Positions 4,390 through 56,752 of a DNA stretch of 64,000 nucleotides are shown here, one piece after another. Source of the DNA: Escherichia coli (GTDB lineage Bacteria; Pseudomonadota; Gammaproteobacteria; Enterobacterales; Enterobacteriaceae); assembly GCF_050920415.1 (NCBI RefSeq), contig NZ_CP169309.1; one strand, 5' to 3'. Positions within the stretch are counted from its first letter, which is position 1. Each line of letters starts with the position of its first letter. The translations under genes were made by a program, and so were the position numbers. The notes beneath the pieces are model-generated. The model had not been told where the DNA came from. It searched no databases and saw only the letters and a list, made by a program, of their open reading frames with translations.

Positions 4390-4874
4390 GATACTGCTCC
4401 TTGGGATTAATCGTTTTCGTTTCGATACCCTGTAAAAACGACACCTCAGGCGCAAACTTAAAATCACTATGAAAAAAATTTCGCCACGTATTATCCGATG
4501 CCACTTTTAGCTAAAAAAAGCAGAGGTTAAATTCAGATAAAAAGATTATTAGCAATATCTGCCACATGGCCAGGTATCAAAATATGTCTTTATCAATTGC
4601 TTGATATAGTTAAGATTGTCATCAATTAACGCGTTTTCTTCACAATGTACTGATGCCAAAATTTACATTGCGTTGCAAATAGTACACATTTGGCTATTGT
4701 ACCTGTCCTGTCATTTCGTTACATTCCCACGCCATATAGTGATTAAGAATAATCCTATTACCATAAAATATTAATTATCACGCAGAAAAATCATCTTCTC
4801 AGGGACGTATAAGACTGTGCTTTATGTAAAGCACTATCAGGAACCATTTATCCCTTGCTAAGGTAAACTCAACT

Positions 4875-6769: not shown

Positions 6770-7597
6770 TTAGAGAACGCTGAATAAATTCAACTCACTC
6801 ACTTTCGAGTAAGTCTTGAGGGTAGCTTCCATTGCCACTTCCAGTCCGGTAAAGGTGATCGACGCAGGGCCGTAATCGAGATCCTGCAATGAACCAATCA
6901 ACTCATCATTAGAGGTAGAGATATCGGTCTGCGCATCGCTCAGCATCGACATGGTGTTTTGTGTCTCGCCGAGCGACGCAATCGAGGCGTTGAGGTCGTC
7001 CGAGGCGGTGTCCACCACATTAACGGCGTTTTGAATATCGCTTTGTACCTGCGGATCTGCCGGGTCAACGTTAGGGTCTTGCAACTCCTGAGAGAGCGAA
7101 TTGAGCGTGTTGAGCACATCTAAATTACTTCCGAAGAAATCGCTCACCGCCACGTTGGTATCCACTTCAACGCCGTTCGACACCGTCGTCTGGCGATGGT
7201 CGCTGTTACCCTGATAGCTGTAGCTATCGGTCACGCCATCACCGTCATCGTCCAACGCCACAATCGGCGGCTGATCGTTGATGGTGCCGCCAAAGACGTA
7301 ATGCCCGTCTTCATCCTGATAGTTGAGCGCCGCCAGCAGGCTGTTGTTGACGCCATCGAGAATCGACTCCTGCTGGCTTAACCCCGCCGACGCAGAGTCA
7401 ATATTGCTTTGATACTGCTCAATCGCCGACTGCTGGCGGTTCAACTGAGTGATGCGTGTGGCGGCGATAGGATCATCCGATGGCTGCAAAATTTCCTTGC
7501 CGGTTGCCATCTGCTCGACCACGTGCGCCAGTTCGCCAGAAAGATTATTAAAACTTTGCGTCATCGAGACGTAGGTTTGTTGAGTGGTTACTCGCAT
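6770..7597 (-). CDS. lfgL: Hook-filament junction protein FlgL-like (HAP3)
   Basis: Start chosen at the internal ATG (MRVTTQQTYVSM…), which has a GGGAG Shine-Dalgarno upstream and a 14-nt gap after flgK; flagellin-like terminal helices. The ORF track start at 7621 is the alternative. Confidence 0.8.
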   Translation of the reverse strand: MRVTTQQTYVSMTQSFNNLSGELAHVVEQMATGKEILQPSDDPIAATRITQLNRQQSAIEQYQSNIDSASAGLSQQESILDGVNNSLLAALNYQDEDGHYVFGGTINDQPPIVALDDDGDGVTDSYSYQGNSDHRQTTVSNGVEVDTNVAVSDFFGSNLDVLNTLNSLSQELQDPNVDPADPQVQSDIQNAVNVVDTASDDLNASIASLGETQNTMSMLSDAQTDISTSNDELIGSLQDLDYGPASITFTGLEVAMEATLKTYSKVSELNLFSVL

Positions 7598-15799: not shown

Positions 15800-16558
15800 G
15801 TGACTGATGAGAAAGGGTTTATGAGGTTTCAATTTTGCAGGCGGAAGTTGTATTTCCTCCTGGCGCTGGCCTTACCGGGCTACGCCGCCGTCCATCCCGT
15901 GCAACATAGCGCGCGGGAACAAATCAACGCCCAGGTGCTGAATGCCGCGAGCCAGCAGATTGAATCGCTGGCGCAACAGCGGCAGTGGCATGACTATCGC
16001 TACACCTTTAAGGTCTACATTCCCTCGCAGATTGCGACCGCCGCGCCCTGCGCTACGGCCCCCGGCGTCACGCTGACGTCGCCTGCGGAAATCGCTCTCA
16101 ACCGGATGAACTTCACCGTCAGTTGCCCGCAAAGCTGGCAGATGAACGTTGCGGTGCGCCCGGATGTTCTGGTGCCGGTGGTGATGGCGAAGTCACTGGT
16201 TGCCCGCGATACGCCGCTCACGGCAAATGATGTGGAGCTGAAGCCCTACAACGTCAGCGCCCAGCGGCGGGATGTGCTGATGGATCTCAATGAAGCGATT
16301 GGTTTAAGCAGCAAACATGCCCTGCAACCAGGCAGGCCGCTTACCAAAGAAGAACTGGTTTCGCCAGTGCTGATCGAGCGCGATCAGCCGGTGATGATTG
16401 TTTACCAGAGCGCGGGGATCACCGCCTCGATGCCCGGCGTGGCGCTGAAAAATGGTCGCAAAGGGGAAATGGTGAAAGTACGTAACGCCAGCAGCCAGCG
16501 GGTCATTAGCGCGATGGTGGCCGAAAGCGGCGTGGTGACAACGGTAAGCGCGGAGTAA
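15800..16558 (+). CDS. lfgA: P-ring assembly chaperone FlgA-like
   Basis: 252 aa with signal peptide (…LLALALPGYAAVHP…), divergent from flgB. Alternative start at 15821. Confidence 0.8.
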   Translation: MTDEKGFMRFQFCRRKLYFLLALALPGYAAVHPVQHSAREQINAQVLNAASQQIESLAQQRQWHDYRYTFKVYIPSQIATAAPCATAPGVTLTSPAEIALNRMNFTVSCPQSWQMNVAVRPDVLVPVVMAKSLVARDTPLTANDVELKPYNVSAQRRDVLMDLNEAIGLSSKHALQPGRPLTKEELVSPVLIERDQPVMIVYQSAGITASMPGVALKNGRKGEMVKVRNASSQRVISAMVAESGVVTTVSAE

Positions 16559-16704
16559 TTTGCTTCGATACCGCGTAGCATATGTATGACTATCTCCCAA
16601 TATTATGACTTTCTGACAAATTTCATCGTGTCTTTTGGATAATTATTGAGCACTCAATCACTACTGTTTAAATATCCAGATGGTAACTATTTCATCTGGG
16701 TCAA

Positions 16705-18171
16705 ATGAGTGATACTGTATCACCAATAAGACCTATGGGGGATGCTATGTCTGAATTTGAATTACTCGTGAAAGATCTTCTTTTAAAATCAGAAGAAGAC
16801 GAGAAAAAGCGACAAGAAAAAGATCGAGAATTAATTTCAAAGGTCCTTGAAATCTATGATCAAAAATATGTTGCAGAACTCTTACGAAAACTAGGAAAAA
16901 ATGAATGGAGCAGAGAAACACTTAACCGTTGGATAAATGGTAAGTGCAATCCTAAGCAATTAACTTCTGCGGAGGAAACTTTACTCCGCAAGATGCTTCC
17001 AGAACCTCCTGAACATCATCCTAACTACACATTTCGTTTTATTGATTTATTCGCAGGGATTGGTGGTATTCGTAAAGGTTTCGAAAACATTGGTGGACAG
17101 TGTGTTTTTACCAGCGAATGGAATAAAGAAGCGGTAAGAACCTACAAAGCTAATTGGTTTAATGATGAACTAAATCATAAATTTAATCTTGATATACGAG
17201 AAGTCACTTTAAGTGATAGAGATGATGTTTCCGAAGTAGAAGCCTATAATCATATAGACAAAAATATTCCAGATCATGATGTCCTTCTGGCCGGTTTTCC
17301 ATGTCAGCCCTTTAGTCTGGCTGGGGTAAGCAAGAAAAACTCTCTGGGGCGTGCACATGGTTTTGAATGTGAGGCACAAGGAACACTATTTTTTGATGTC
17401 GCTCGGATTATTAAATCAAAAAAACCAGCTATTTTTGTGCTTGAGAATGTGAAAAACCTTAAAAGTCATGATAAAGGTAAGACTTTTAAAGTCATCATGG
17501 AAACACTCGATGAATTAGGATATGAAGTCGCCGATGCTGGTGTTACTGGCTCAGATGATCCCAAAATTATAGATGGAAAACATTTTTTACCCCAACATCG
17601 TGAGCGTATAGTGTTGGTAGGATTTCGTAGAGATCTGAATATTCACAAGGATTTCACGTTACGAAACATTAACCGCTTTTACCCTCAAAACAGGCCAACA
17701 TTTGGTGAATTATTAGATCATGATGTTGACGATAAATATATTTTGACTCCAAGGTTATGGGAATATCTTTACAATTATGCAAAAAAACATGCAGCAAAAG
17801 GCAATGGGTTTGGTTTTGGTTTAGTGGATCCTAAAAATCCAGATAGTATCGCAAGGACTCTGTCTGCTCGTTATCATAAAGATGGCTCTGAAATATTGAT
17901 TGATCGTGGCTGGGATAAGGCTGTCGGTGAAATTGACTTTAGTAATCCAGCGAATCAAGAGCATCGTCCAAGAAGACTGACACCTCACGAATGTGCCAGG
18001 CTAATGGGTTTTGAAAAACCAGGGGGAAGACCTTTTAGAATACCTGTATCGGATACACAAGCCTATAGACAATTTGGGAACTCAGTTGTTGTTCCAGTAT
18101 TTGAAGCTGTAGCAAGATTACTAGAACCATATATACAAAAGGCAGTCAATATGCATATTATTAACGATTAA
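16705..18171 (+). CDS. DNA (cytosine-5)-methyltransferase, Dcm/M.EcoRII-like (predicted CCWGG specificity)
   Basis: C5-MTase motifs read directly: [11 protein letters not shown] (motif I), [11 protein letters not shown] (motif IV), ENVKNL (motif VI), [10 protein letters not shown] (motif X). Overall layout closely parallels E. coli Dcm as I recall it. AT-rich gene. Confidence 0.9.
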
Positions 18172-18193
18172 TAATAATTAATTTTCACTATTG

Positions 18194-18216
18194 TGAGGCC
18201 TTTTTATTAAAGGCCT
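18194..18216. terminator. Hairpin between the convergent methyltransferase and endonuclease genes (candidate bidirectional terminator)
   Basis: gaggccttt-ttatt-aaaggcctc: 9-bp perfect stem with 5-nt loop in an AT-rich spacer. Confidence 0.6.
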
Positions 18217-18257
18217 CTAAATATATAATCATGAGTTTTTACAAGTATGTTTTTATA

Positions 18258-19463
18258 TTATACAAAATCTTCATAAAGCGTTATTAACTGTGTAATAAAA
18301 CCATCTAATGTTAATATTTCCTCCCTGATTTCCTCCGGGTATTTTTTATGAAGAGGGGAAGGTACAACCAAGGTGACACCTTCAGCTCTCATTTCGTTAA
18401 ATTGAGCAACAGAGACACCCTCTTGCAAGGTAAACAAATATATCTTGTTGATTTTATTTGCTTCATTAAGCGCCTGTCGCCACCGATCCTTACATGTTGT
18501 TTTTACAGCAAGCATACGGAGTTTTTCTCTTGGAAAGTGATCATCATGGTAAGCTGCCGCTGATGGGAAAAGAAAATCGGGTTTCTTTTTTCCTTCAGTA
18601 ATACATTGAGTAGCAAAATGATGCAGTCCATGCTCAATAAAAATTTGCTCAAGATGTAGCTCCAGTGATTTCCCGGCTCGAGATTTTCTTCTATTACTAA
18701 CAGAGTTAGCCATAGCTATAAAATCATCTACAGAACCAAATCCTTGACGGATGATGTCCAGTACGTGAATTTCTTCAACCATTAGAAAGAGATCATATTC
18801 AATACGGCGGCGTTCTAAAAGTTGGTCATCTGGACTGGTTACGCCTGTTGGGTAATAACCTGCCGCATATTGGATAATATCTAAGCCAGAAGGAAAACTA
18901 TGTTTCCAGCTTTCCGGAATAACATATTCCTTTTGAGAGATTTTTGGCCTTGATGCGAGTACACCAAGTATTTCACTGGCAGGCCCAAACATTAAAGTTC
19001 CTGGAATGATCTCCCCAACAGCTGATTCCAGTACATCCTCTTCTTCTGGGCTTACACAAACCCATACATCAACACTTTTGCTGTCTCTCCCAGGCTCATG
19101 TTCAAACGCAAGCACAGACAAAGCACCTGTATTTTCCGGATCTTGTAGGGGACTGCCAGCCCCCCACCGAGTGATACGTTTTTCATTTCTTGTTTGCCCG
19201 AAATACTTATTATTGTAGTAAATAGCGCGAACCTCACTGTCTACACATTCATGAGAGGAATAAGTTGCGCGCAATAAAACCGAAGGATTTTTTTCTGACG
19301 TATGATCTATAGATGGGAAAAGTTCACCGACGATACCGGAAGGGATATATACCCCCACTTGATGCCCTCCTGTTGCACCAGTGTCGTTTGCTGAAAGACG
19401 TTTGATATAGAGATAATTGTTACCACCGACCTTATCAAGCAGCCAATCTTGTAATCCTGACAT
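18258..19463 (-). CDS. Type II restriction endonuclease, EcoRII-like
   Basis: 401 aa, convergent with the Dcm-like MTase. N-terminal …YIKRLSANDTGATGGHQVGVYIP… and overall length match my recollection of R.EcoRII (~400 aa, two-domain). Not verified by alignment. Confidence 0.75.
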   Translation of the reverse strand: MSGLQDWLLDKVGGNNYLYIKRLSANDTGATGGHQVGVYIPSGIVGELFPSIDHTSEKNPSVLLRATYSSHECVDSEVRAIYYNNKYFGQTRNEKRITRWGAGSPLQDPENTGALSVLAFEHEPGRDSKSVDVWVCVSPEEEDVLESAVGEIIPGTLMFGPASEILGVLASRPKISQKEYVIPESWKHSFPSGLDIIQYAAGYYPTGVTSPDDQLLERRRIEYDLFLMVEEIHVLDIIRQGFGSVDDFIAMANSVSNRRKSRAGKSLELHLEQIFIEHGLHHFATQCITEGKKKPDFLFPSAAAYHDDHFPREKLRMLAVKTTCKDRWRQALNEANKINKIYLFTLQEGVSVAQFNEMRAEGVTLVVPSPLHKKYPEEIREEILTLDGFITQLITLYEDFV

Positions 19464-19633
19464 AAGACATCCTTATTTTTGCATAGTATCCGATTCAGAT
19501 TTTTCCACATATCCATCAGAACGACCAGAACCAACATATCTGAACAAAAAGTAAATATGCGATAACGATTAAAGTTTTGCCGCCTGTTAACCGCTTTACC
19601 GGAGTAACCACCCAATACCGAGACGAGGTTGCG

Positions 19634-19912
19634 ATGAAAATCACCCCGACGATGCCAGGCAATCGCCCGACAGCCACAACGGCAGGCTCCAGCCAGCCGC
19701 GTAAAAGTACGGCGACCACCACCACGACGCTGAGTGCCGACGACATTACCCAGGCGGGATTGCAGTCTGCCCAGCAAACGCTGAACGACCAGCAAGAGAG
19801 CGATATCGACAGCGATAAAGTGGCGCAAATGCAGGCGATGCTGGCGTCCGGCAGCCTGCAAGTGGACACCGAACAGTTAGCCAGCGACATGCTGAGTTTT
19901 TTCCAGAACTAA
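19634..19912 (+). CDS. lfgM: Anti-sigma-28 factor FlgM-like
   Basis: Start at internal Met (MKITPTMPGN…), 92 aa; Thr/Ser-rich N-terminus and C-terminal …MQAMLASGSLQVDTEQLASDM… typical of FlgM. Confidence 0.8.
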   Translation: MKITPTMPGNRPTATTAGSSQPRKSTATTTTTLSADDITQAGLQSAQQTLNDQQESDIDSDKVAQMQAMLASGSLQVDTEQLASDMLSFFQN

Positions 19913-20440: not shown

Positions 20441-21409
20441 TTGCACATCCTGCACAGCATTAAAGACTGGAAGCCACCTATGAGTTTTATTGAATGTTAC
20501 GAACCGGAATATGCGCGCAATTTTATGGCGCAATATCCCGATTCGCCTTTATACGTCCGCAAGGTGTGGAAGAATGAGATTCGCCAGAGCCTGGCATTGA
20601 CCGATATTGCCAGTTGCAAAGCAGTGCTCAACAATGCCAGGGCCTTTGAATTACAGCTTACCTATCGCCCTGTGGAAGAAAATGCCGCAGCGCTATCTGC
20701 GCGCGATGCGATAGTAAACCAGATAATTTTGAGCACCCTCACGCTCCCGGATTTAACCCCAGAGCTTTCACTGTATGCCGTCGGGATTTTGCTCTCCCGC
20801 GCCAGTAAAATGCCGGGCAGAGACGGCGACACTCTCGCCCGGCTGACAGCACTGCCGCAGGCGCTGGCCGATCACGCACAAAAAGGCACGTTACAGGCAC
20901 AGTTCGCACAGCTACCGCCTGTGCCACAGCTGGCGCGCCAACTGGTGACGCTGCTCGGGAGTTTTGCGTTTGACTGGTCGATTCTGCCGAAAAGCCCGCG
21001 CAAAGCCTCACTGCCGTTGCAGGTTACCTTGCTGACGCTGCACGACGCCAACAGCGAAGCCCTGTTGCAGCAGCAGCTTCAGACACAGTGGCAAACTACC
21101 TGGCAACAGCATTTTGCCACCGCGCCGTGGATGATGCGTAACTGGCTAATTTACCGGGTTTATCACGATGTGATTGGCCAGGCAGACGGGGCGGATTATT
21201 TCCCGCTGGTGTGCGATTTTTACCTCATCCGCACGTTAATCAGTTTATGGACGCTGGATGATTCACCGCTGCGGCAGGAGGATATTTTCGCCCTCTTCGC
21301 GGTGTTTGAACGCTGGCGAACCAGTGAAAATGCCGTGCTGATTCGCCAGCAAATTCAGTCATTATGTGCCGCCGACCCGCTGCTTTCAGCGTTTTCGTTG
21401 CTGACGTGA
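20441..21409 (+). CDS. Hypothetical protein (GC-typical), function unknown
   Basis: 322-aa ORF downstream of flgN (alternative start 20480, MSFIECYEP…); no motif I can assign. Confidence 0.5.
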   Translation: MHILHSIKDWKPPMSFIECYEPEYARNFMAQYPDSPLYVRKVWKNEIRQSLALTDIASCKAVLNNARAFELQLTYRPVEENAAALSARDAIVNQIILSTLTLPDLTPELSLYAVGILLSRASKMPGRDGDTLARLTALPQALADHAQKGTLQAQFAQLPPVPQLARQLVTLLGSFAFDWSILPKSPRKASLPLQVTLLTLHDANSEALLQQQLQTQWQTTWQQHFATAPWMMRNWLIYRVYHDVIGQADGADYFPLVCDFYLIRTLISLWTLDDSPLRQEDIFALFAVFERWRTSENAVLIRQQIQSLCAADPLLSAFSLLT

Positions 21410-21428
21410 GTCGCTCTGTGCGCGCTTT

Positions 21429-21545
21429 GCCCTCACCCCGGCCCTCTCCCACAGGGAGAGGGAGAAACCCTGCGCCCAATTCAGCACCGCGCTCGATCGG
21501 TCCCCTCGCCCCTTCGGGGAGAGGGTTAGGGTGAGGGACATCAGC
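21429..21545 (-). repeat. Copy C (inverted) of the composite palindromic intergenic repeat
   Basis: gccctcaccccggccctctcccacagggagagggagaaa … ccttcggggagagggttagggtgaggg; reverse complement aligns with copies A and B. Confidence 0.8.
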
Positions 21546-21596
21546 GCGCGCATTCAGCACCTCCATCACATTCACCCACTAACTCACCCAAACACC

Positions 21597-24041
21597 ATGC
21601 CAACACCAAGCATCATCAAAACACTCGCCACCCACCGCGAAAAACCGTTCGTCAGCGTCGTCACGCCAACATGGAACCGCGGCGCATTCCTCCCGTACCT
21701 GCTCTATATGTACCGCTATCAGGACTACCCGGCAGACCGCCGCGAACTGGTCATCCTTGACGACTCGCCGCAAAGCCATCAACACATCATCGACCGCCTG
21801 ACCAATGGCACGCCGGAAGCCTTTAACATCCGCTACATCCATCACCCGGAAAAACTGCCGCTGGGAAAAAAACGCAATATGCTCAACGAACTGGCGAGCG
21901 GCGAATATATCCTCTGCATGGATGACGACGACTACTACCCGGCAGATAAAATCTCTTACACCATCGCCATGATGCAAAAACACCGGGCGCTGATCTCCGG
22001 TTCCGACCAGATCCCCATCTGGTACAGCCATATCAACCGCATCTTTCAAAGCCGCAGCTTTGGCCCGCGTAACATCCTCAACGGCACCTTTTGTTATCAC
22101 CGTAACTACCTGAAAAAGCACCGTTACAATGACGATTGCAATTTAGGCGAAGAGAAAAGTTTCACCGACAATTTCAGCGTAAACCCGCTGCAACTGCCCG
22201 GCGAGCGCACGATTTTGTGTATTTCGCATAGCCACAACACCTTTGATAAAGACTTTATTCTCGGGGCCAGCACGCCAGTAAACGCGGCGCTTACGGATAT
22301 CGTCACCGATCCGCTGCTCCGCAATGCTTATCTGAGTCTGCATAACGCCACGCATCACCAGGGGATCAACCATCAGGCGATCTATCAGATCGTTCTGCTG
22401 AATCTGGATAAACGCCCGGATCGTTTACGGCAGATCCGTGAAGAGCTGGCATTGCTGCATATTCCGCCTGAAAAAATTACCCGCCTTGCCGCCTGTGAAG
22501 ATGAAAACGGTCAACGGGGCCGCCGCCTGTCGCACTTGCAGGCGCTACGCCTGGCGCAACAGCACGGCTGGCAAAACTATCTGCTGCTGGAAGATGACGC
22601 GGTTATTCTCAAGCAGGAGAAACATATTCAGGTGCTGAACACGCTGCTGGCGAGCCTGGCGAAAATTCCCTGGCAGGTGATGATCCTCGGAGGCGAAATT
22701 TCGCAAGGAACAATGCTAAAAAGCCTGCCGGGGCTGGTGCACGCGCAGGACTGCCGCAAAGTGTGCGCTTATCTGGTGAACAGCCGGTACTACCCACAAC
22801 TGGCGCAGCAGATGAGTAACGATGAGCACTCGCTGGAAGACGGCTGGCAGCCACTGCTGCGTGCCGACAAATGGCTGGCCTGTTACCCGAGCCTTAGTTA
22901 TCAGCGACCGGGCTTTAGCGATATCGAGAAAAAAGCGACTGATAACATTAACCACTACTTCAATAAGTTACCCGTAGCCACCAAGCCATCTACATTACCT
23001 ATCGCCGACACCATCGGCTTTTTAATGGAAACCTCATTCCACTACGCGCTCTATCGCCCAATCATCACCGCTCTACAGGCGCAGGGGCAGAGCTGCACGC
23101 TGGTGATCAACGACCGCGTGTTTAAACCGTTTCTGGATGAAATGCTGGAGACGCTAAAAACCATCGACGATCCGCAGCTCAAAGGTATGCGCTTGTCTGA
23201 GATGCAGGCACACGGTCAGCGGGTGAAATGCCTGGTCAGCCCCTACCACACGCCCGCGCTCAATGGCCTGGCAGCGGTGAACATCCGCGCTATGTACGGC
23301 TTAGCCAAAGAAACGTGGAACCACGCCGACTGGAACCGTTTTTATCAGCGCATTTTGTGTTATAGCCACTACAGTCAGCAGGCGCTGGCGCATTTCGGCA
23401 GCGCAAAAGTGGTCGGCAATCCACGCTTCGACGCCTGGCATAACGGCACGTTCGACCGTGCGTTGCCGGAAAATATCCAACCAGATTACCGTAAACCTAC
23501 GGTGCTCTACGCCCCAACATTTGGCGCATTAAGCTCCCTGCCCCACTGGGCAGAAAAATTGGGCCGCTTAAGCGGTGATGTGAACCTGATTTGCAAACTG
23601 CACCACGGTACCTGCTCGCGCCCGGAAGAAGCCGCATCGCTGACCCTGGCACGCAGGCATTTAAAGCAGAGCACCGACTCCGCCCGTCACACGCTGGCGA
23701 TGCTGGCAAAAGCCGATTACGTGCTCACCGATAACAGCGGCTTTATTTTCGATGCTATCCACGTTGATAAGCGGGTGATCCTGCTCGACTTTCCGGGCAT
23801 GACGGAACTGCTCGACGGTGAGAAAAGTTATTCCACACCGGAGAGCGCCGACCAGCGAATCCGCGAAATATTACCGGTGGCTCATGATATGGCTGAGCTG
23901 CGTTACTTATTGTCAGAGGCGTTTGACTGGGGGGCGGTACAGGCGCGGCTTACGGAGATTCGCCATCACTATTGTGACGCGTTTATGGATGGCAAGGCGG
24001 GAGAACGGGCGGCGATGGTGGTTGTGGAGGCATTGGGGTAA
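21597..24041 (+). CDS. Large multidomain glycosyltransferase (GT2-like N-terminus, GT25-like centre, TagB/TagF-like C-terminus); candidate flagellin-modification enzyme
   Basis: N-terminus …VSVVTPTWNRGAFLPYLL…ILDDSP… (GT-A fold); central …LLNLDKRPDRL…LLEDDAVI… (GT25-like); C-terminus …YAPTFG…KLHH…VLTDNSGFIFDA… resembling CDP-glycerol glycerophosphotransferases. Start taken at ATG 21597; the ORF extends back to 21531 across repeat C. Confidence 0.65.
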   Translation: MPTPSIIKTLATHREKPFVSVVTPTWNRGAFLPYLLYMYRYQDYPADRRELVILDDSPQSHQHIIDRLTNGTPEAFNIRYIHHPEKLPLGKKRNMLNELASGEYILCMDDDDYYPADKISYTIAMMQKHRALISGSDQIPIWYSHINRIFQSRSFGPRNILNGTFCYHRNYLKKHRYNDDCNLGEEKSFTDNFSVNPLQLPGERTILCISHSHNTFDKDFILGASTPVNAALTDIVTDPLLRNAYLSLHNATHHQGINHQAIYQIVLLNLDKRPDRLRQIREELALLHIPPEKITRLAACEDENGQRGRRLSHLQALRLAQQHGWQNYLLLEDDAVILKQEKHIQVLNTLLASLAKIPWQVMILGGEISQGTMLKSLPGLVHAQDCRKVCAYLVNSRYYPQLAQQMSNDEHSLEDGWQPLLRADKWLACYPSLSYQRPGFSDIEKKATDNINHYFNKLPVATKPSTLPIADTIGFLMETSFHYALYRPIITALQAQGQSCTLVINDRVFKPFLDEMLETLKTIDDPQLKGMRLSEMQAHGQRVKCLVSPYHTPALNGLAAVNIRAMYGLAKETWNHADWNRFYQRILCYSHYSQQALAHFGSAKVVGNPRFDAWHNGTFDRALPENIQPDYRKPTVLYAPTFGALSSLPHWAEKLGRLSGDVNLICKLHHGTCSRPEEAASLTLARRHLKQSTDSARHTLAMLAKADYVLTDNSGFIFDAIHVDKRVILLDFPGMTELLDGEKSYSTPESADQRIREILPVAHDMAELRYLLSEAFDWGAVQARLTEIRHHYCDAFMDGKAGERAAMVVVEALG

Positions 24042-24049
24042 ACCGCAGA

Positions 24050-24152
<103 letters not shown>

Positions 24153-24367
24153 AACAGCGCACTTATCTACCCTTCGATTTTAAATACATCTCTTTATGGC
24201 TGGTGAATCGGTAAAGTCGTAGATTGTGGGGGAGCGATCTTTATGAATTCTGAAAAAACCCTGAATCTTGCTAAACATATTGCTTATCATAAATATAGGT
24301 TACACACTATAAAAATTACTGCGTAATTTAACATCTTGCCTAAAAATGATAGAGCGTAAACGATAAT

Positions 24368-25189
24368 ATGACTTCTGATAAAAAAGTAACTTCCGGTACG
24401 ACAAGCCAGAAACAAAACAACATTGTCACTCAAAAAATATCACGCCAGAAGGAATTGTTTCTATTATTTTGGGTTGATGAGTCCGATGATAGCCGACGTT
24501 CTATTTTTGAAGAAGCATGTCTGACGCGTTATTTCAATATCCTTTATTCCCCCGAGTATAAAAAAGAAACACAGATAGTTTATCATTTATCAATTAACAC
24601 ATTTAATCAAATCAAAGAAATATTAGAAATCTTTATAAACAAGAATGGAGGTAAAACTAAAGCAAAGGTTAAAGAAGTCAGTTTATTCTCACATGGGGGG
24701 CCAATTCATGGTCCTACAACCTCAAACTCTATAAATACACCTTCCGTGCCTAAATACCCACAACAAATGGACATATCCGGAGGATGGGATTCAATTGATT
24801 TTAACTGGTCAAACAATGCTATGTTTGTTATGTATGGTTGTCGCACTAGTTATGCAAGTGATGATTCAGGACAAGGTTTTGCCAGTAAATTATCCCTATT
24901 AGATAATTTTAAGGACGTGAATGTCTGGGGTCAAACAGAAAGTACTTATCCATCTTATTTCCCAGATATCAGGACAACGTCGATTATGAGGTCAATAAAT
25001 ATAGGTTGGTCTTTTTCACCAACATATATGGTTGCCAATTCTGAAGGTCAAGGATGGGATGCATTATTCCCGGATAATCGAAATCCATTAAAAGCTCTCC
25101 CTATGCAGTGTTATAATAATGGGACATTGATTTTAACCTGCGATCAAAGCAATTTTAATGATCACCGGAAGAATAAATCAAATGATTAG
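24368..25189 (+). CDS. Hypothetical protein with a caspase-like (clan CD peptidase-type) His…Cys dyad; AT-rich
   Basis: 273 aa; hydrophobic strand + SHG (VSLFSHGGP, His109) and, 49 residues later, hydrophobic strand + GC (AMFVMYGCRT, Cys158), the arrangement of caspase/CHAT-type catalytic dyads. Inferred by eye only. No signal peptide. Confidence 0.45.
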   Translation: MTSDKKVTSGTTSQKQNNIVTQKISRQKELFLLFWVDESDDSRRSIFEEACLTRYFNILYSPEYKKETQIVYHLSINTFNQIKEILEIFINKNGGKTKAKVKEVSLFSHGGPIHGPTTSNSINTPSVPKYPQQMDISGGWDSIDFNWSNNAMFVMYGCRTSYASDDSGQGFASKLSLLDNFKDVNVWGQTESTYPSYFPDIRTTSIMRSINIGWSFSPTYMVANSEGQGWDALFPDNRNPLKALPMQCYNNGTLILTCDQSNFNDHRKNKSND

Positions 25190-25721
25190 CATTGTATTGA
25201 GAAGCTTTATTTTATTATTCATAATAATAGTGTATCCGGATTATAATAAAAACCCACCTGCCTTTGAAGTATATGGGGAAAATGACATACTTAAGGATAT
25301 GGTTATTAATATGAAAACTTATAGATACCATAGTAAGGAAAACTCTTCCCCCACAGCTATAGTGCAAACCATCCTTTTTAAAGGAAATATACAGCAAGTT
25401 TTTGAAAGCAATGACATGGGTGGTGCGAGCTTCTTTTTTTCTTATAATAATAAGGTTGAAACGCTGGTAACAGACGCTTTCTTTTTAAATAAAAAATTAG
25501 ACAAACTGCATGATGCAAATATTTTTGAGGTTATAAAGCATAAGGAAAACATCGTTATTAGATATTACAAGTGCAAAATTGAATATATGCAAAGAGAAAA
25601 ATTTATCGAAATAGAGATATCAACAAACAAAAATAGTTATTTTAACAAGAATGGAATAAAACAAAAAGATACAAATAAATATAACACATATTTCTTCAAT
25701 TACTTTGAGTCTCAAAAATAA
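25158..25721 (+). CDS. Hypothetical small membrane-anchored protein, partner of the upstream gene; AT-rich
   Basis: 187 aa; N-terminal hydrophobic segment (ISIVLRSFILLFIIIVY), Lys/Asn-rich remainder; overlaps the upstream gene (alternative start 25182 gives an 8-nt overlap). Confidence 0.45.
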   Translation: MITGRINQMISIVLRSFILLFIIIVYPDYNKNPPAFEVYGENDILKDMVINMKTYRYHSKENSSPTAIVQTILFKGNIQQVFESNDMGGASFFFSYNNKVETLVTDAFFLNKKLDKLHDANIFEVIKHKENIVIRYYKCKIEYMQREKFIEIEISTNKNSYFNKNGIKQKDTNKYNTYFFNYFESQK

Positions 25722-25724
25722 ATT

Positions 25725-26129
25725 TTATTTTGTCATGCGCGCCCTCCTAATCACCTCAATAATCCCCGTCGTCGACACCGACGGCGTGCGGGGGAAATAG
25801 ACCACCTCACAAATATACGCGAAGCTATCAAACTTCCCTGCCCAGTCATCGCCCATCACCAAAACATCCGCACTGTACCCCCGCAGATATTCCGCTTTCT
25901 GCGCCAGCGATTCCTCGAGAAATACGCCATCCACGCACGCCAGCCCGGCGATAATCGCCATGCGGTCATCCTGAGGGTAAACCGGTGCCCTGCCCTTTTT
26001 GGCAATATTTAAGGCGTCGGACGACACGCCAACCAGCAGCCGTTCGCCCAGCGTGCGGGCGCGTTGTAAAAGGCGCAGATGACCGACATGAAACACATCG
26101 AAGGTGCCGAAGGTGATGACCGTTTTCAT
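25725..26129 (-). CDS. Cytidylyltransferase, TagD/glycerol-3-phosphate cytidylyltransferase-like
   Basis: Start at internal Met (MKTVITFGTFDVFHVGHLRLL…); HxGH nucleotidyltransferase motif; 134 aa; begins 3 nt after the fliJ stop. Confidence 0.75.
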   Translation of the reverse strand: MKTVITFGTFDVFHVGHLRLLQRARTLGERLLVGVSSDALNIAKKGRAPVYPQDDRMAIIAGLACVDGVFLEESLAQKAEYLRGYSADVLVMGDDWAGKFDSFAYICEVVYFPRTPSVSTTGIIEVIRRARMTK

Positions 26130-39302: not shown

Positions 39303-39593
39303 TGGATTGATAGTATGATTAAGGTCAGCGCGCTAGGCTCTCGTCATAGAAAAACATTCGACGATGTAATGACGGAGCCGCCAAAATCTGGAATTAAATG
39401 GGATGATGTTGTTGCTCTCATTAAAGCGGTGGGTGGATCAATAAAAAATAACAACGGCTCCAGACGAAAATTTCAGATTGGAACGACCAAATTCAGCACA
39501 CATGAGCCGCATCCAAAGAATGTGATGGATAAAGGCGCAGTAGCAGGTCTTAAGGAGTGGTTTGTTAACTGTGTAGGGGTAGATTATGAATAA
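39294..39593 (+). CDS. HicA-like toxin (mRNA interferase family), putative
   Basis: 99-aa ORF (alternative start 39315); C-terminal half (…NGSRRKFQIGTTKFSTHEPHPKNVMDKGAVAGLKEW…) resembles the HicA pattern as I recall it; 8-nt overlap with the downstream gene. Confidence 0.45.
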   Translation: MTSWIDSMIKVSALGSRHRKTFDDVMTEPPKSGIKWDDVVALIKAVGGSIKNNNGSRRKFQIGTTKFSTHEPHPKNVMDKGAVAGLKEWFVNCVGVDYE

Positions 39594-39942
39594 AGCATCG
39601 AACATTATCACAATTAAAGGTCAACCAGCCGCAGTGACATTTGAAGCCGATATCAACGCATTTCGCGGCAAGTTCCTCAATGTAAACGGTTATTGTGACT
39701 TTGTAGCCACAAGTATTGAGGCATTATATCGTGAAGGCGAAAGCGCTCTGGATGAGTGGATGGCGGATTGTGAAGAGGACGGTATTGCCCCTTTTCGTGA
39801 AGAAGAAGAGCAAAAACGCCTGACGCTTCGTGTGCCGCATCACATCGATTCGCGGCTGACCATCGTCGCCAGACAACATTCCATTTCAAAAAACCAGCTC
39901 ATTATTGATGTCTTAGAACGTGAGTTTTCAGCCCAGATGTAA
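39586..39942 (+). CDS. HicB-like antitoxin with C-terminal ribbon-helix-helix, putative
   Basis: 118 aa; N-terminal HicB/UPF0150-like region and C-terminal RHH-like segment (…KRLTLRVPHHIDSRLTIVARQHSISKNQLIIDVLEREF…). Confidence 0.55.
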   Translation: MNKASNIITIKGQPAAVTFEADINAFRGKFLNVNGYCDFVATSIEALYREGESALDEWMADCEEDGIAPFREEEEQKRLTLRVPHHIDSRLTIVARQHSISKNQLIIDVLEREFSAQM

Positions 39943-47464: not shown

Positions 47465-47700
47465 TTGGGGTATGACTACGAAAGCCCGCTCTCCTGCGAC
47501 CACTTTTATCATAGGAGTGTGGAAGTGCTTTTCCATCAATCGCGATGACGTCTTTGTCATCTGAAGAATGACATTCACGCATCCGGTTAATAAAGCATTC
47601 GTGAAATTATACTGAACGGATACAAGACATAACTCTAATTATGGTGCCGTGAACAGGATTACCATTTTCAAAATTACGATATTATTTGCAGTAATTATGT
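47465..47700 (-). mobile_element. Degenerate ISAs1-family (H-repeat) transposase remnant abutting the yafV 3' end
   Basis: About 80% nucleotide similarity by eye to 49396-49620; minus-strand translation …[26 protein letters not shown]… matches the transposase fragment at 49323-49781. Confidence 0.5.
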
Positions 47701-47706
47701 TATTAA

Positions 47707-48219
47707 TCATTGTGATATTTCCATCTCTGTGATTAATACCGGATACGCATTTAATTGCAGAGTTTGCACGAAATTATCGCAGATAACTGGCAATAACAAT
47801 AACCCATCAGCCCGCTGCTGTAATACCTCCATTCGTTCTACTGATTCAACATTAACAACCAAACCAAGGGCATTTAGCGATTTAAGGATCTCCAGATGTT
47901 CACTCATCCAGCGCAGAGAAAAAGGATCATCACCAATTATAAAAACAGGCCCCCAGCCGGTTAATAACTGGCGTTTCATTACGGAACCAGGATGAAGTCG
48001 AGTACATATTACAGGAAATACCCCCTGTTGCGATGGTTCCGATGATGTGGATAATTCAGAAATATTTTCCATTGTTAGTGAAGAATTAACATCCATTAAT
48101 AATGGTGAAACAACCTCACTTTCCTTGCTAGTAATGGCTGCACTAATCTGAGAGGAAAATAACAATATTATTACGTATAAACTCATTTTTAACATAACAA
48201 ATTCAATCCGTTTATTCAT
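47707..48219 (-). CDS. Hypothetical secreted/membrane protein, AT-rich
   Basis: 170-aa ORF with N-terminal hydrophobic signal-like segment (MSLYVIILLFSSQISAA); no assignable motif. Confidence 0.45.
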   Translation of the reverse strand: MNKRIEFVMLKMSLYVIILLFSSQISAAITSKESEVVSPLLMDVNSSLTMENISELSTSSEPSQQGVFPVICTRLHPGSVMKRQLLTGWGPVFIIGDDPFSLRWMSEHLEILKSLNALGLVVNVESVERMEVLQQRADGLLLLPVICDNFVQTLQLNAYPVLITEMEISQ

Positions 48220-48285
48220 GTTATAGAATAATGATGCTATAAATCATCATTAATGTTCAATTATTTAATCACACAGTTTAAAAAA

Positions 48286-48789
48286 TCATTGACCAATGTG
48301 AATTGGCAATGTACCACTCAAGTTAAAATCACTGAATATTTTATCAATTTCTCTTGCAGTTTCTATATATTTAACCTCTTTCGTACTTGCATTATAAATA
48401 GCCCAAGCCTCGGGATGGGATGTTCCACCAAACCTTACAAAAAAACTTGATTTCATATTATTATATAAATTAACATCAGGAAAAGGATCTTCTCCAAAAT
48501 TAGTAGTATTGAATAATGAAAGTTCGTATCGCTTAGAAAATTCTATTGGTAGGATAGCTTCACTGCCATCAATAGCATTCATCCAGAGTTTGTTACCATT
48601 ATATTCCAACAATAATCTCTGTTTTGCATGTGTTTTATCTCGTTCTTTAACGACAGCGAATACCTTTTTAACAACCTGCTGTGCGGATGGTCCTATTGTA
48701 TTACCAAAAGATGGCAACCCGATTTTGCCATAAACACTCTCCTGAATGAAATAAATATCCGTTTTATCGGCCTCGACAATATCTACCAT
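48286..48789 (-). CDS. Hypothetical cytoplasmic protein, AT-rich
   Basis: 167-aa ORF; no signal peptide; no assignable motif. Confidence 0.45.
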   Translation of the reverse strand: MVDIVEADKTDIYFIQESVYGKIGLPSFGNTIGPSAQQVVKKVFAVVKERDKTHAKQRLLLEYNGNKLWMNAIDGSEAILPIEFSKRYELSLFNTTNFGEDPFPDVNLYNNMKSSFFVRFGGTSHPEAWAIYNASTKEVKYIETAREIDKIFSDFNLSGTLPIHIGQ

Positions 48790-49101
48790 TTATCCCTCCA
48801 AACAAGACCTGACTCCAGGACAAGAGCATAGTGTGTAGTAAACACATCATGCTCTTGCCCTGACCATTGAAATAACAACTTTCGTTTGTTTACTGTACGC
48901 TGTCTAAATAGCTGCGTGGAATAAAGTTGCACTTTTTATCATCCCTTGTAGAGCAAGATTACGAAAGCCCGCCCCCGCAAGGGCTGACGCGAGGTAGTCT
49001 CTGTCCGCAGCTGCTTTTCACATCTTACATCTTGCCCCTGCCTTGAGTATCTTATCTTTCGTTAAAATATTAATAGCGATCTTCCGTATCCCTGAAAATA
49101 A

Positions 49102-49781
49102 TTATGCTGCATTTCCTCTTCTTATTTTGAAGTCGTCTTTATTCATTACCACTTCCAGATGCCAGTGCAATTTATTCTCCACTTGCCAGTGATTTCGGTT
49201 CGCTGTGGCGAACTTCTCTGCGGTTAAATCAGCAGAAATGCTATAATATCTGACCGTCATTTCGGGATTTTTCTTTTGTTCTGCTATTATTGAGCGAAAT
49301 GAGACTGCCATGCATAATTTCTTCAGCCCTTTCCATTCAAACGTAAAATCAATAAATTCATCAGAGACATGCAAACAATATGAAGACGGATTTTAATGAC
49401 ATAAGTTGCTCCCTTGTGACGAGTTTTATCATAAGAGTGCCGGAGCGTTTTTCCATCAATTGCAATGACGTCTTTATCATCTGAAGAATGACATTCACGC
49501 ATCCGGTTAATAAAGCATTCGTGAAATTTTGCAGGACTGATACATGATACAACTCTGGCAATAGTATCGTGAACAGGAATACCATTTTCAAAATCACCAT
49601 ATTGCTTCAAAAAATCGAGATGAGTTTCCCCGAAATCCTCTATATCTTCCCAGCCTTCTGCACCCGAAATAACGGCGCAAATAGTCAACAGTAGAATATC
49701 CGATAATTTATGCTCCACTTTCCAGGCTTGTCTGTAATCGGGGATAATAGAAATATGTTCCATCAATTTTTTAAGTTCCAT
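49102..49781 (-). pseudogene. ISAs1-family (H-repeat-associated) transposase, internally deleted/frameshifted
   Basis: N-terminal 152 aa ([51 protein letters not shown]…) and a separate 90-aa C-terminal piece (…[30 protein letters not shown]) lie in different frames; the catalytic middle is missing. Confidence 0.7.
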
Positions 49782-49904
49782 TTTGTTCTCCTTAATTATG
49801 TAAGGAGTATTTGATCATGTATAAGCAATAAAAAACAGCTTCAGGTAATGAGGAATATCTCAATTTTTAAACATAAAATGCGAATTATTTAGTACAAAAA
49901 AGCA

Positions 49905-51796
49905 GCGTTAAGTGAGTAGGCCACCGGAACCTCCCCGACAGCCTCTCGCAGAACCGTACGTGAAACTCTCGCTTCATACGGCTCCCGTCAGGCAAACGCG
50001 CTTCCTGGTCCTGCTTTCCAGTGGGCAAACAACTCCGGCTTCTCTTTTGACAGCCTTTCCATTAGCTGACACGCCTTCGTCTTTCTATACCGCAGGGTTT
50101 TATATTTCTTTCTCGCCCACGCAATCAGCGTCAGATTAATATATCTGCATACTTTCTTCATCGCTGATTTGTGGTATCTCGCGTAATAATTCAGCCACCC
50201 CGATATTATCGGATTCAGCCACTTCGCAATATCTTCGAGACTCATCTCCACCCTGCGTCTGATCCACAGTTTCCTGAGTTTTCCAATCATGCCTTTCTGC
50301 GCACGGTTACTCGCCGCCGGGCTGAAACTCGTAAAGAGGTTTCCCCGCCGGTGGTTACGTGCTCTTCGCGCTCTGAACGTATACCCCAGAAAATCAAACT
50401 GCACTGTTTCATGGTTCGCCTGTCGTTCGCTGTCTTTGCAGTAAACTACTTTCGTTTTCTCCGGATGTAATTCCAGTCCACATTCCTGAAAACGTTTTGC
50501 CAGCTTATTCAGTAATTCCTCTGCCTGTTGTTTACTGCCACAATGAATTAATCCATCATCTGCATAACGGCACAGGGAATTTCCGGATAATGTAACGTCA
50601 GCCATTTATCAAACACATAGTGCAGAAATAAATTCGCCAGTACCGGGCTGATGACTCCACCCTGTGGCGTACCTTTATTTCTTTCCTTCAGTGTTCCATC
50701 CGGCATCTGCACCGGCGCTGTCAGCCACCGGCGAATAGACAGTCTTACCCATTTATCCGCACAATGTTTATCTACTGCCCTGAGTAATAAATCGTGGGAG
50801 ATATTATCGAATAACCCTTTAATATCAAACTCAAGACACCAGTCGTATTGCCAGCAACGTTTTCTGGTGACTGCTATTGCATCCAGCGCTGATTTTCCAT
50901 GCCGGTATCCGTATGAATCATTCAGGAAATAACGCTCCACTAATGGTTCAAACGTTACCAGCACCGTCATCTGCGCTATTCGATCGCTTACTGTCGGTAT
51001 TCCTAAAAGTCTTTTGCTGCCATCCTTCTTCGGAATTTCCACCGCACGCACTGGCGGCGGCATCCAGCTTCCCGACGATAACCTGTTCCAGATTTTGTAC
51101 AGATTTCCTTTCAGATCCCGCTCAAAATCTTTCAGCGTCTGGTTATCCACTCCGGCAGCTCCGGCATTCGCCTTTATCCGCCGGTACGCTTCCACCACAT
51201 GCAATTTACTGACCTGAAACGGTTTTGTCTGTTCACACACAGCCTCCTCCTGCCTACAGTTGGGCTGTGATGCAGACTGCCCGACGCTGTCCCTTCGCTC
51301 CACGTTCATTACAAACGCTTCCTCACTACTACGAACAGCTCTGCCCCGGTTTCGCACATCGATACTCTCATACTCATAATTTCGGTTATTTGTATTTCTC
51401 TCTTGAAATTGCGACGACCGGTTCCCGTAGTTCCTGCAAAGAGCCTGATACAGCGTCATGCCTGCTATACACCGGACACCATTCACGCAGCATTCGGAAT
51501 TCACCCGTAAATTAATCCCGGCGGTATCACGAAACCTCCGGTTTTGATGTCACTTAGGACTAACGACGTTTCAACACAGGTTCGGGTTTACTCATCTCAC
51601 TGTATCTCACATAGGATCAGATCTCGTCTGATCGTTCCCCCTGCGCTCACTACCATGGCTCTTTACCACAGCAGCCGGGGTTGTTTGGGACCGACTTCCG
51701 ACAGCAGATCCCGGTGGGCCTGCCACCATCTCTTCACAAGCTTATGCTTATTACATGCAAAACGTCCCGTTTTGCATCTTTGTGCCTACGGCACAC
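49905..51796 (-). mobile_element. Bacterial group II intron (about 1.9 kb)
   Basis: 5' end GTGTG on the minus strand (complement of cacac at 51792-51796); RT/maturase ORF; domain V-like hairpin gagccgtatgaagcgagagtttcacgtacggttc (complement of 49951-49984) just after the ORF stop. 3' boundary is approximate. Confidence 0.65.
49988..51309 (-). pseudogene. Group II intron reverse transcriptase/maturase, frameshifted
   Basis: RT motifs (…GIPTVSDRIAQ…, …TPQGGVISPVLANLFLHYVFD…) in ORF 50548-51504; YADD and maturase domain X (…GWLNYYARY…) in ORF 49988-50605. The two parts are in different frames. Confidence 0.7.
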
Positions 51797-51843
51797 GATG
51801 ATCTTTCCCTGATTACTTGACCTTTCCCTGGGAGTACAGAGTG

Positions 51844-51893: not shown

Positions 51894-51942
51894 CACTACA
51901 TGTCTACATTTTCCCGGTCTCCAACCCCTCAATCTTATAAAC

Positions 51943-56740: not shown

Positions 56741-56752
56741 TGTCTTTCTCCC

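What the first reader, a model, noticed from the sequence alone, without database searches (positions are those of the whole stretch)
16559..19633. EcoRII-like restriction-modification cassette inserted between flgA and flgM
A Dcm/M.EcoRII-like C5-cytosine methyltransferase and a convergent ~400-aa endonuclease with an EcoRII-like N-terminus occupy an AT-rich ~3-kb block that splits the flagellar flgA / flgMN neighbourhood. They share one hairpin between their stops. This is a defence (or selfish) module embedded in a motility locus. It would add CCWGG methylation or restriction on top of any chromosomal dcm, and its insertion may have separated flgA from flgMN transcriptionally.
Basis: partly seen in the sequence, partly recalled or inferred. 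Interest (0 to 1): 0.7.

Follow-up and report, generated by a model that had tools for sequence, protein, structure and literature searches.

The report
EcoRII-type restriction-modification cassette in Flag-2
A 3-kb foreign block carrying an EcoRII-type restriction enzyme and its cytosine methylase sits between two lateral-flagella genes of an E. coli chromosome; it is real and looks functional, but it is an ordinary member of a well-known family and was already reported in 2020.

Summary
Window 16564-19565 is a 3002-bp, 38% GC block in a 52% GC E. coli Flag-2 (lateral flagella) locus. It lies exactly between lfgA and lfgM. It encodes a Dcm/M.EcoRII-type C5 methyltransferase (16747-18171, +) and a convergent full-length EcoRII homologue (18258-19463, -), with a 9-bp-stem hairpin between the stops.

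The endonuclease has both EcoRII domains and is 69% identical to EcoRII. It keeps every active-site, CC:GG-readout, base-flipping-pocket and effector-domain base-contact residue named in the EcoRII-DNA crystal-structure paper.

Of 5426 complete E. coli genomes, 1279 carry this part of Flag-2. 1250 have an uninterrupted lfgA-lfgM junction and 28 carry the cassette. So it is an insertion. There are no mobility genes, terminal repeats or target duplication.

Both genes are intact in every carrier inspected and under strong purifying selection (dN/dS 0.04-0.09). Synonymous divergence is 0.10-0.21, so the cassette is an old resident. A near-identical strain also has intact dcm-vsr, so the methylase is redundant for protecting the chromosome.

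The cassette is annotated in RefSeq, and De Maayer et al. 2020 reported it in the Flag-2 loci of 21 Escherichia strains.

The parts
16564..19565 (.). Inserted block of 3002 bp and 38% GC. It replaces about 5 bp (GCTGG) of the empty lfgA-lfgM spacer.
   Evidence: Occupied and empty alleles were compared. Empty...GAGTAATTTGC|GCTGG|CGATTAAAGTTTTGCC. Occupied...GAGTAATTTGC|TTCGATACC...GCGATAA|CGATTAAAG. No terminal inverted repeats or target duplication were found.
16664..16716 (+). Conserved non-coding block upstream of the methylase gene. It contains the inverted repeat CCAGATG (16676-16682) / CATCTGG (16693-16699). It is a candidate promoter and operator for self-repression by the methylase.
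   Evidence: The block is nearly invariant between the window, Klebsiella spallanzanii and plasmid-borne EcoRII, while everything further upstream cannot be aligned. The function is inferred from published M.EcoRII autoregulation (review PMC3874152).
16747..18171 (+). C5-cytosine DNA methyltransferase of the M.EcoRII/Dcm type, 474 aa.
   Evidence: Pfam DNA_meth_N plus DNA_methylase. NCBIfam PRK10458 scores 913.8 bits against a cut-off of 710. It is 84% identical to plasmid M.EcoRII and 68% identical to the host's own Dcm. PDB 3me5 matches at E 7e-212. The start at 16747 follows PGAP and the frame argument.
18195..18217 (.). Perfect 9-bp-stem hairpin with a 5-nt loop between the two stop codons. 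It is a likely two-way transcription stop.
   Evidence: The K. spallanzanii and plasmid EcoRII systems each have a hairpin of different sequence at the same place. The simple terminator scan does not call it because no T-run follows.
18258..19463 (-). EcoRII-family Type IIE restriction endonuclease, 401 aa.
   Evidence: Pfam EcoRII-N plus EcoRII-C. PDB 1na6 matches at E 2e-188. It is 69% identical to EcoRII. Functional residues are conserved. PADLOC REase_II matches at E 2e-179.
19499..19509 (-). Conserved box TGTGGAAAAAT, 36 nt upstream of the R start codon. It is a candidate extended -10 element of the R promoter.
   Evidence: It is the only conserved stretch upstream of R across the window, K. 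spallanzanii and plasmid EcoRII. The function is inferred.
15821..16558 (+). lfgA (Flag-2 flgA homologue), the left neighbour of the insertion.
   Evidence: RefSeq annotation of identical sequence; ORF.
19570..19912 (+). Sigma-28-like box TAAAGTTT (19570-19577), 4 nt right of the junction, followed by lfgM (19634-19912). This is the right neighbour of the insertion.
   Evidence: A similar TTAAGTTT-N11-GTCGTTTT lies upstream of lafA. The promoter function is inferred.

Best explanation
This is a functional Type II (subtype IIE) restriction-modification cassette of the EcoRII family, acquired horizontally. It was inserted as a bare two-gene unit into the 80-bp spacer between lfgA and lfgM of the E. 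coli Flag-2 lateral-flagella locus. The methylase is predicted to methylate the inner cytosine of CCWGG. Like M.EcoRII, it probably represses its own promoter through its N-terminal DNA-binding domain. The endonuclease is predicted to cut unmethylated CCWGG only when a second copy of the site binds its N-terminal effector domain and relieves autoinhibition. Each gene has its own promoter region inside the block, and a shared hairpin stops the convergent transcripts. Shown here: gene content, domain architecture, residue conservation, insertion junction, rarity among Flag-2 loci, purifying selection, and presence of host dcm-vsr. Inferred: CCWGG specificity, enzymatic activity, regulation, and any effect on lfgMN transcription.
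For: - Both EcoRII domains and both Dcm-type domains are present.
- The endonuclease matches the EcoRII crystal-structure sequence over its full length, E 2e-188. It is 69% identical overall and 77% in the catalytic domain.
- All residues named in PMC2770665 are identical, with one exception. These are the active site (E271, D299, K324, E337), the CC:GG readout (K328, D329, R330, N260), the flipped-base pocket and backbone contacts (R222, E225, Y226, F229, R265, A266, R262), and the effector-domain base contacts (N28, H36, Q37, Y85, R94, E96, R98). The exception is K92->Q among the phosphate contacts.
- The methylase is 84% identical to plasmid M.EcoRII, with all C5-methylase motifs visible.
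- 1250 genomes have an empty site and 28 are occupied.
- The block has foreign GC content.
- The same convergent unit occurs in another context in Klebsiella spallanzanii, and on 1936 plasmids at about 71% nucleotide identity.
- Both genes are intact in all 7 carriers inspected.
- dN/dS is 0.04-0.05 for M and 0.04-0.09 for R. Synonymous divergence is 0.10-0.21, close to that of the flanking flagellar genes at 0.2-0.3.
- Promoter-proximal blocks and an intergenic hairpin are conserved across distant homologues.
Against: - No enzymatic or methylome data exist for this allele.
- At 69% identity to EcoRII, a shift in specificity cannot be formally excluded.
- The host has intact dcm. The methylase is therefore redundant for self-protection. 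DNA coming from other dcm+ enterobacteria would already be resistant, so the defence benefit that would explain the purifying selection is not obvious.
- The hairpin has no T-run and is not called by the terminator scan.
Confidence: 0.88

Rival explanations
1. The cassette is a decaying remnant: an inactive endonuclease next to a methylase that merely duplicates Dcm, with no present function.
For: The host has its own dcm-vsr. Published work shows Dcm neutralises killing after loss of EcoRII (review PMC3874152), so the cassette cannot enforce its own retention. E. coli Flag-2 loci often carry lesions; the window's own lfgL has a 34-codon deletion.
Against: Both ORFs are full length in all 7 carriers inspected, and none is flagged as a pseudogene. 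All 28 carriers align over the full 3 kb. dN/dS is 0.04-0.09 over synonymous divergence of 0.1-0.2. Every catalytic and DNA-contact residue tested is kept except one phosphate contact.
Confidence: 0.05
2. The two genes are an ancestral part of the Flag-2 locus that most strains have lost, rather than an insertion.
For: The cassette is old. Synonymous divergence between carrier lineages (0.10-0.21) approaches that of the flanking genes. An empty-site strain (WL297) has flanks closer to the window (98.4% and 96.1%) than an occupied strain does (94.6% and 91.5%). So presence and absence do not follow flank relatedness.
Against: The block is 38% GC in a 52-60% GC locus. 1250 genomes are empty and 28 occupied. 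Across Enterobacterales, cluster 2 is typically lfgNMABC..., with lfgM next to lfgA, and the R-M pair was reported only in 21 Escherichia strains (PMC6993521). Related units lie in unrelated contexts in Klebsiella and on plasmids. The mismatch with flank relatedness is what homologous recombination between alleles would produce.
Confidence: 0.03
3. The system is active but has a different specificity or mode of action from EcoRII. For example, it might cut CCNGG like Ecl18kI, or not need a second site.
For: Identity to EcoRII is 69% overall and only 47% in the inter-domain linker. Ecl18kI and PspGI share the catalytic fold and match weakly. The published work itself says the basis of W discrimination is incompletely understood.
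Against: All pocket residues linked to the central base pair (E225, F229, Y226, R222) and all effector-domain base contacts are identical. The partner methylase is 84% identical to M.EcoRII, which is specific for CCWGG. The full effector domain is present.
Confidence: 0.04

Closest known systems
EcoRII restriction-modification system (R.EcoRII / M.EcoRII, plasmid-borne prototype; structures 1NA6, 3HQF, 3HQG)
   Same: - The two-gene convergent layout is the same.
- There is a hairpin between the stop codons.
- The endonuclease has the EcoRII-N plus EcoRII-C architecture.
- All published catalytic and recognition residues are kept.
- The methylase has the N-terminal DNA_meth_N domain.
- Sequence blocks upstream of M and upstream of R are conserved.
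   Different: - R is 69% and M 84% identical in protein, and the DNA is about 71% identical.
- This cassette is chromosomal, at a fixed site in Flag-2. No plasmid or phage copy at 85% identity or more was found.
- The intergenic spacer is longer (86 bp against about 33 bp) and the hairpin sequence differs.
- GC content is lower.
E. coli chromosomal Dcm-Vsr
   Same: It belongs to the same methyltransferase subfamily (NCBIfam PRK10458) and has the same predicted CCWGG target. Both are present in the same genome.
   Different: The cassette methylase is only 68% identical to the host Dcm. It is paired with an endonuclease rather than with vsr. No vsr-like ORF overlaps its 3' end.
EcoRII/Dcm cargo genes of Escherichia Flag-2 loci, as described by De Maayer, Pillay and Coutinho 2020 (PMC6993521)
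   Same: This is the same thing. The paper reports a 401-aa EcoRII and a 474-aa Dcm in the Flag-2 loci of 21 Escherichia strains, with average amino-acid identities of 97.1% and 98.6%. That matches the sizes and the 96-100% identities found here.
   Different: In the passages I read, the paper does not give the exact junction, the frequency of empty sites, the selection analysis, the residue-level comparison or the host dcm status. Those are added here.
Klebsiella spallanzanii / K. oxytoca chromosomal EcoRII homologues
   Same: They are the nearest relatives outside E. coli: R is 77% identical. The layout is convergent and the GC content low. DNA homology spans the M promoter block through to the R start codon.
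   Different: The genomic context is different, not a flagellar locus. No homology extends beyond the two genes and their promoter regions.

Membership tests
EcoRII family (Type IIE restriction endonuclease) | Two-domain architecture: an N-terminal B3-like effector domain plus a C-terminal PD-(D/E)XK catalytic domain | tested here: met
   Pfam EcoRII-N covers residues 16-164 (E 1.6e-59) and EcoRII-C covers 226-390 (E 1.1e-70), each over the full model length. The protein aligns with 1na6 over residues 1-400.
EcoRII family (Type IIE restriction endonuclease) | Active-site residues Glu271, Asp299, Lys324 and Glu337 (PMC2770665) | tested here: met
   All four are identical, as E268, D296, K321 and E334.
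EcoRII family (Type IIE restriction endonuclease) | CC:GG readout triplet Lys328-Asp329-Arg330 plus Asn260, and the flipped-base pocket Arg222, Glu225, Tyr226, Phe229, Arg265, Ala266, with Arg262 | tested here: met
   All 11 residues are identical.
EcoRII family (Type IIE restriction endonuclease) | Effector-domain contacts to CCWGG: Asn28, His36, Gln37, Tyr85, Arg94, Glu96 and Arg98, plus the phosphate contacts | tested here: met
   7 of 7 base contacts are identical. 5 of 6 phosphate contacts are identical; the change is K92 to Q.
EcoRII family (Type IIE restriction endonuclease) | Cleavage of unmethylated CCWGG that depends on a second recognition site | not testable with these tools
   This needs purified enzyme or in vivo restriction assays.
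M.EcoRII / Dcm subfamily of C5-cytosine methyltransferases | C5-methylase catalytic core with the conserved motifs (FxGxG, PCQ, ENV, QxRxR, GNSV) and a score above the curated subfamily cut-off | tested here: met
   Pfam DNA_methylase at E 1e-78. NCBIfam PRK10458 scores 913.8 bits against a cut-off of 710. The motifs [29 protein letters not shown] and FGNSVVVPV are visible in the alignment.
M.EcoRII / Dcm subfamily of C5-cytosine methyltransferases | N-terminal DNA-binding extension used for self-repression | tested here: met
   Pfam DNA_meth_N at E 9e-26, full model length. A conserved inverted repeat lies in the upstream block. Repression itself was not tested.
M.EcoRII / Dcm subfamily of C5-cytosine methyltransferases | Methylation of the inner cytosine of CCWGG | not testable with these tools
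   This needs methylome sequencing in a dcm-negative background.
Self-mobile element (transposon, integrative island, prophage) | Recombinase or transposase gene, terminal inverted repeats, or a target-site duplication | tested here: not met
   The block holds only the two genes. No terminal repeats or duplication were found at the junctions. No similar plasmid or phage copy was found.
Flag-2 (lateral flagella) locus cargo insertion | Lies inside a Flag-2 cluster and is absent from most Flag-2 loci of the species | tested here: met
   lafA and the lfg/lfi/lfh genes surround it. 1250 of 1279 loci are empty and 28 are occupied. 20 carriers were seen with lfgA and lfgM on either side.

The most novel reading that the evidence does not exclude
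The cassette has persisted for a long time under strong purifying selection on both genes, in a host whose own Dcm should cancel addiction and whose usual DNA donors are already CCWGG-methylated. This could mean it is kept for something other than classical defence or post-segregational killing. One possibility follows from its position. No terminator was detected between lfgA and the methylase gene, so class-2 lfgA transcripts may read into M. The hairpin and the opposing R gene would then block read-through into lfgMN. The insertion could therefore both tie extra CCWGG methylation to lateral-flagella induction and alter the LfgM/LafS checkpoint.
Probability: 0.1. Interest if true: 0.45.

Novelty: already known. 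Interest (0 to 1): 0.15.

Why it matters
The finding matters little beyond bookkeeping. It confirms that E. coli Flag-2 loci accept cargo genes, and it gives a clean example of a bare R-M gene pair inserted into an operon spacer with no mobility machinery. Its one mildly useful property is that it sets up a natural experiment. An EcoRII-type system has been kept intact for a long time in a dcm+ vsr+ chromosome, where the selfish-addiction explanation is neutralised. Carriers and their close empty-site relatives could therefore be used to ask what maintains such systems. They could also show whether splitting lfgA from lfgMN changes control of lateral flagella.

Tried and rejected
- **Mobile-element signatures.** I searched for terminal inverted repeats, direct repeats at the junctions and recombinase genes. 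None were found. Only a 4-5 nt CGAT(A) microhomology lies near both ends, which is not significant.
- **A plasmid or phage vector for this allele.** No plasmid or phage matches the cassette at 85% identity or more over more than a short stretch. The only 80-90% hits are one unlisted plasmid record and a 68-nt match in a Microcystis phage. Plasmid EcoRII is about 71% identical.
- **A recent donor species.** The nearest R protein outside the E. coli cluster is 81% identical, on a 1.5-kb metagenomic contig. The next are Klebsiella proteins at 77%. The donor is unidentified.
- **A C (controller) protein or a vsr gene inside the block.** There is no ORF of 60 aa or more other than M, R and overlapping spurious frames.
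- **The 488-aa methylase start at 16705.** Rejected, because a 1-nt indel puts it out of frame in other carriers.
- **CCWGG avoidance inside the cassette.** Not seen: 4 sites against about 2.5 expected.
- **The simple terminator scan.** It does not call the intergenic hairpin, and the sigma-70 scan finds no more sites than shuffled sequence does. The promoter assignments therefore rest on cross-homologue conservation only.
- **Literature on the M.EcoRII operator.** The paper mapping it (PMC332081) is not held, and a text search for it gave nothing useful. The operator assignment is an inference.
- **NCBIfam.** It has no model that matches the endonuclease.
Full report
**What is there**

The window is an E. 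coli chromosome segment. Positions 16400-19700 are 100% identical to strain MFDS1022581 (NZ_CP169399.1) and 99.9% identical to strain N96. RefSeq annotation of that stretch and its surroundings shows a complete lateral-flagella (Flag-2) locus. It contains lafA, fliD/S and lfgL-B on one side. It continues with lfgA, lfgM, lfgN and a glycosylation region, then the fliJ-E homologues, a sigma-54 activator, the fliM-R homologues and flhBA homologues. The same chromosome has a separate Flag-1 system elsewhere.

Two convergent ORFs lie between lfgA (15821-16558) and lfgM (19634-19912). One runs 16747-18171 on the + strand and the other 18258-19463 on the - strand. GC falls to 0.33-0.46 here, against 0.55-0.60 in the flanks. 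The block is 38.2% GC and the rest of the window 52.3%.

**Identity of the two proteins**

- The - strand protein (401 aa) has both Pfam EcoRII domains over their full lengths.
- It aligns end to end with the EcoRII crystal-structure sequence 1na6 (E 2e-188).
- Identity is 69% overall: 68% in the effector domain, 47% in the linker and 77% in the catalytic domain.
- I took the residue lists from the EcoRII-DNA co-crystal paper (PMC2770665) and mapped them onto the alignment.
  - All four active-site residues are identical.
  - The K328-D329-R330/N260 readout of CC:GG is identical.
  - The seven residues of the flipped-base pocket and backbone clamp are identical.
  - All seven effector-domain base contacts are identical.
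  - One of six phosphate contacts differs (K92 to Q).
- The + strand protein has the C5-methylase core and the DNA_meth_N extension.
- It scores 913.8 bits against the NCBIfam Dcm subfamily cut-off of 710.
- It is 84% identical to plasmid M.EcoRII and 68% identical to the host's own Dcm. It is therefore an M.EcoRII-lineage gene, not a duplicate of dcm.
- PADLOC files the pair as a Type II REase and MTase.

**It is an insertion, and the junction is exact**

I built an artificial empty site by joining lfgB/lfgA to lfgM/lfgN without the block, and searched all 5426 complete E. coli genomes with it.

- 1279 genomes have the locus.
- In 1250 of them the two halves are contiguous in a single alignment.
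- 29 records give two separate places.

Searching with the block alone finds 28 genomes. All hits are chromosomal and full length, at 95.8-100% identity. Twenty of these carriers were seen with lfgA and lfgM on either side.

Aligning occupied and empty alleles gives the junction.

- Empty: GAGTAATTTGC-GCTGG-CGATTAAAGTTTTGCC.
- Occupied: GAGTAATTTGC-[3002 bp]-CGATTAAAG.

The insert is therefore window 16564-19565, and it replaces about 5 bp. There is no target duplication, no terminal inverted repeat and no recombinase gene. No plasmid or phage copy of this allele was found.

**Anatomy of the unit**

I compared the window with the nearest non-E. coli relative and with plasmid EcoRII. The relative is Klebsiella spallanzanii (R 77% identical). 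The plasmid copy is about 71% identical at the nucleotide level and occurs on 1936 plasmids.

- **Upstream of M.** A block at 16664-16716 is almost invariant across all three, although the coding regions have diverged by 20-30% and everything further upstream cannot be aligned. It contains the inverted repeat CCAGATG/CATCTGG.
- **Upstream of R.** The only conserved stretch is TGTGGAAAAAT (19499-19509, - strand).
- **Between the stop codons.** All three systems have a hairpin, each with a different sequence. In the window it is a perfect 9-bp stem (18195-18203 / 18209-18217). The intergenic fold has z = -3.5.

A review states that methylases of this type repress their own promoter through the N-terminal helix-turn-helix domain, and cites the M.EcoRII work (PMC3874152). 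The conserved upstream block is the obvious candidate operator, but this is an inference. The ATG at 16705 that gives the 488-aa ORF lies inside this conserved block. It is out of frame in other carriers because of a 1-nt indel, so 16747 is the real start.

**Age and selection**

Between the window allele and six other carriers, synonymous divergence is about 0.18 in M and 0.10-0.13 in R. It is 0.2-0.3 in the adjacent flagellar genes. dN/dS is 0.04-0.05 for M and 0.04-0.09 for R.

Both ORFs are intact, and neither is flagged as a pseudogene, in every carrier inspected. The cassette is therefore an old resident whose two genes have been kept working.

An empty-site strain (WL297) has flanks closer to the window than an occupied strain does. 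Presence and absence have therefore been shuffled by recombination between Flag-2 alleles.

**Host context**

The near-identical strain MFDS1022581 has intact dcm and vsr. Published work summarised in PMC3874152 shows that Dcm protects against killing after loss of EcoRII. In this host, therefore, the cassette cannot act as an addiction module, and its methylase is redundant for self-protection. What maintains it is not evident from sequence.

**Effect on the flagellar operon (inferred only)**

The insertion point is 5 nt after the lfgA stop codon and 4 nt before a TAAAGTTT box (19570). This box, together with a downstream ACCGCTTT, resembles the TTAAGTTT-N11-GTCGTTTT found upstream of lafA. 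Both look like sigma-28-type promoters.

lfgMN may therefore keep a late promoter of their own. Read-through from lfgA now has to cross the methylase gene, the hairpin and the opposing R gene. No terminator-like site lies between lfgA and M, so lfgA transcripts may extend into M.

**Comparison with what is known**

This is a member of the EcoRII family. All sequence-testable defining features are met. Enzymatic specificity could not be tested.

It is not new. PGAP annotates both genes. De Maayer et al. 2020 reported 'restriction endonuclease EcoRII (401 aa)' and 'DNA cytosine methylase Dcm (474 aa)' as cargo in the Flag-2 loci of 21 Escherichia strains (PMC6993521).

This analysis adds the exact junction, the frequency (28 of 1279 Flag-2-bearing complete genomes), the residue-level check, the conserved regulatory blocks, the selection analysis and the host dcm status.

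**Verdict**

The finding is already known. Interest is low.

Noticed in passing
window 6770-7597 (- strand), junction at about 7327-7335: The window's lfgL (hook-filament junction protein) lacks 102 bp, or 34 codons (VRDDLLEAANGTNTADSLASLGQDIESLTESMVA). These are present in the otherwise 99.9% identical strain MFDS1022581. The longer form has a short direct repeat (CGCCGCCA / CACCGCCAGCA) at both ends, so this looks like an in-frame deletion between short repeats. It may impair the Flag-2 filament junction.
   Followed up: partly
window 19570-19600 (+) and window about 4440-4470 (- strand, upstream of lafA): Two similar sigma-28-like motifs were seen. TAAAGTTT-N12-ACCGCTTT lies upstream of lfgM, and TTAAGTTT-N11-GTCGTTTT lies upstream of lafA. 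They are candidate LafS-dependent late promoters of Flag-2.
   Followed up: partly
window 20441-26129: [quoted passage not shown] It holds a lysine-N-methylase-like protein (20441-21409), an 836-aa glycosyltransferase (21531-24041), two hypothetical proteins and a cytidylyltransferase. This is presumably the flagellin-modification cargo described for Flag-2 loci.
   Followed up: no
window about 39315-39942: A HicA/HicB toxin-antitoxin pair lies immediately after the flhA homologue, at the edge of the Flag-2 locus.
   Followed up: no
window about 47480-61111: A mosaic island follows yafV. It contains ISAs1 remnants and a group II intron reverse transcriptase (49988-51310). It also has a T6SS Tle1-like phospholipase effector (51944-53995) with three tandem DUF3304 paralogues (54027-55662, about 86-88% identical to each other). 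A DUF4123 chaperone, a gp5/VgrG fragment interrupted by IS21, and a full vgrG (59426-61111) complete it.
   Followed up: no
window 61128-64000: The last 2.9 kb of the window does not align with the corresponding part of MFDS1022581, although the preceding 61 kb is 99.9-100% identical. The window therefore comes from a close relative with a different T6SS-effector tail.
   Followed up: no
NZ_CP169399.1 2057795-2060462 (outside the window; locus L038): In the near-identical strain, the primary flagellin gene fliC is split by an IS2 insertion, while the Flag-2 genes are annotated as intact. Motility in this lineage may therefore not depend on Flag-1.
   Followed up: no
L002 (E. coli WL297) against L004 (NRZ14408), flanks of the insertion site: The Flag-2 flanks are unusually divergent among E. 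coli strains (91-98% nucleotide identity, dS up to 0.3). Flank relatedness does not track presence of the cassette, which indicates allele shuffling by recombination across this locus.
   Followed up: partly
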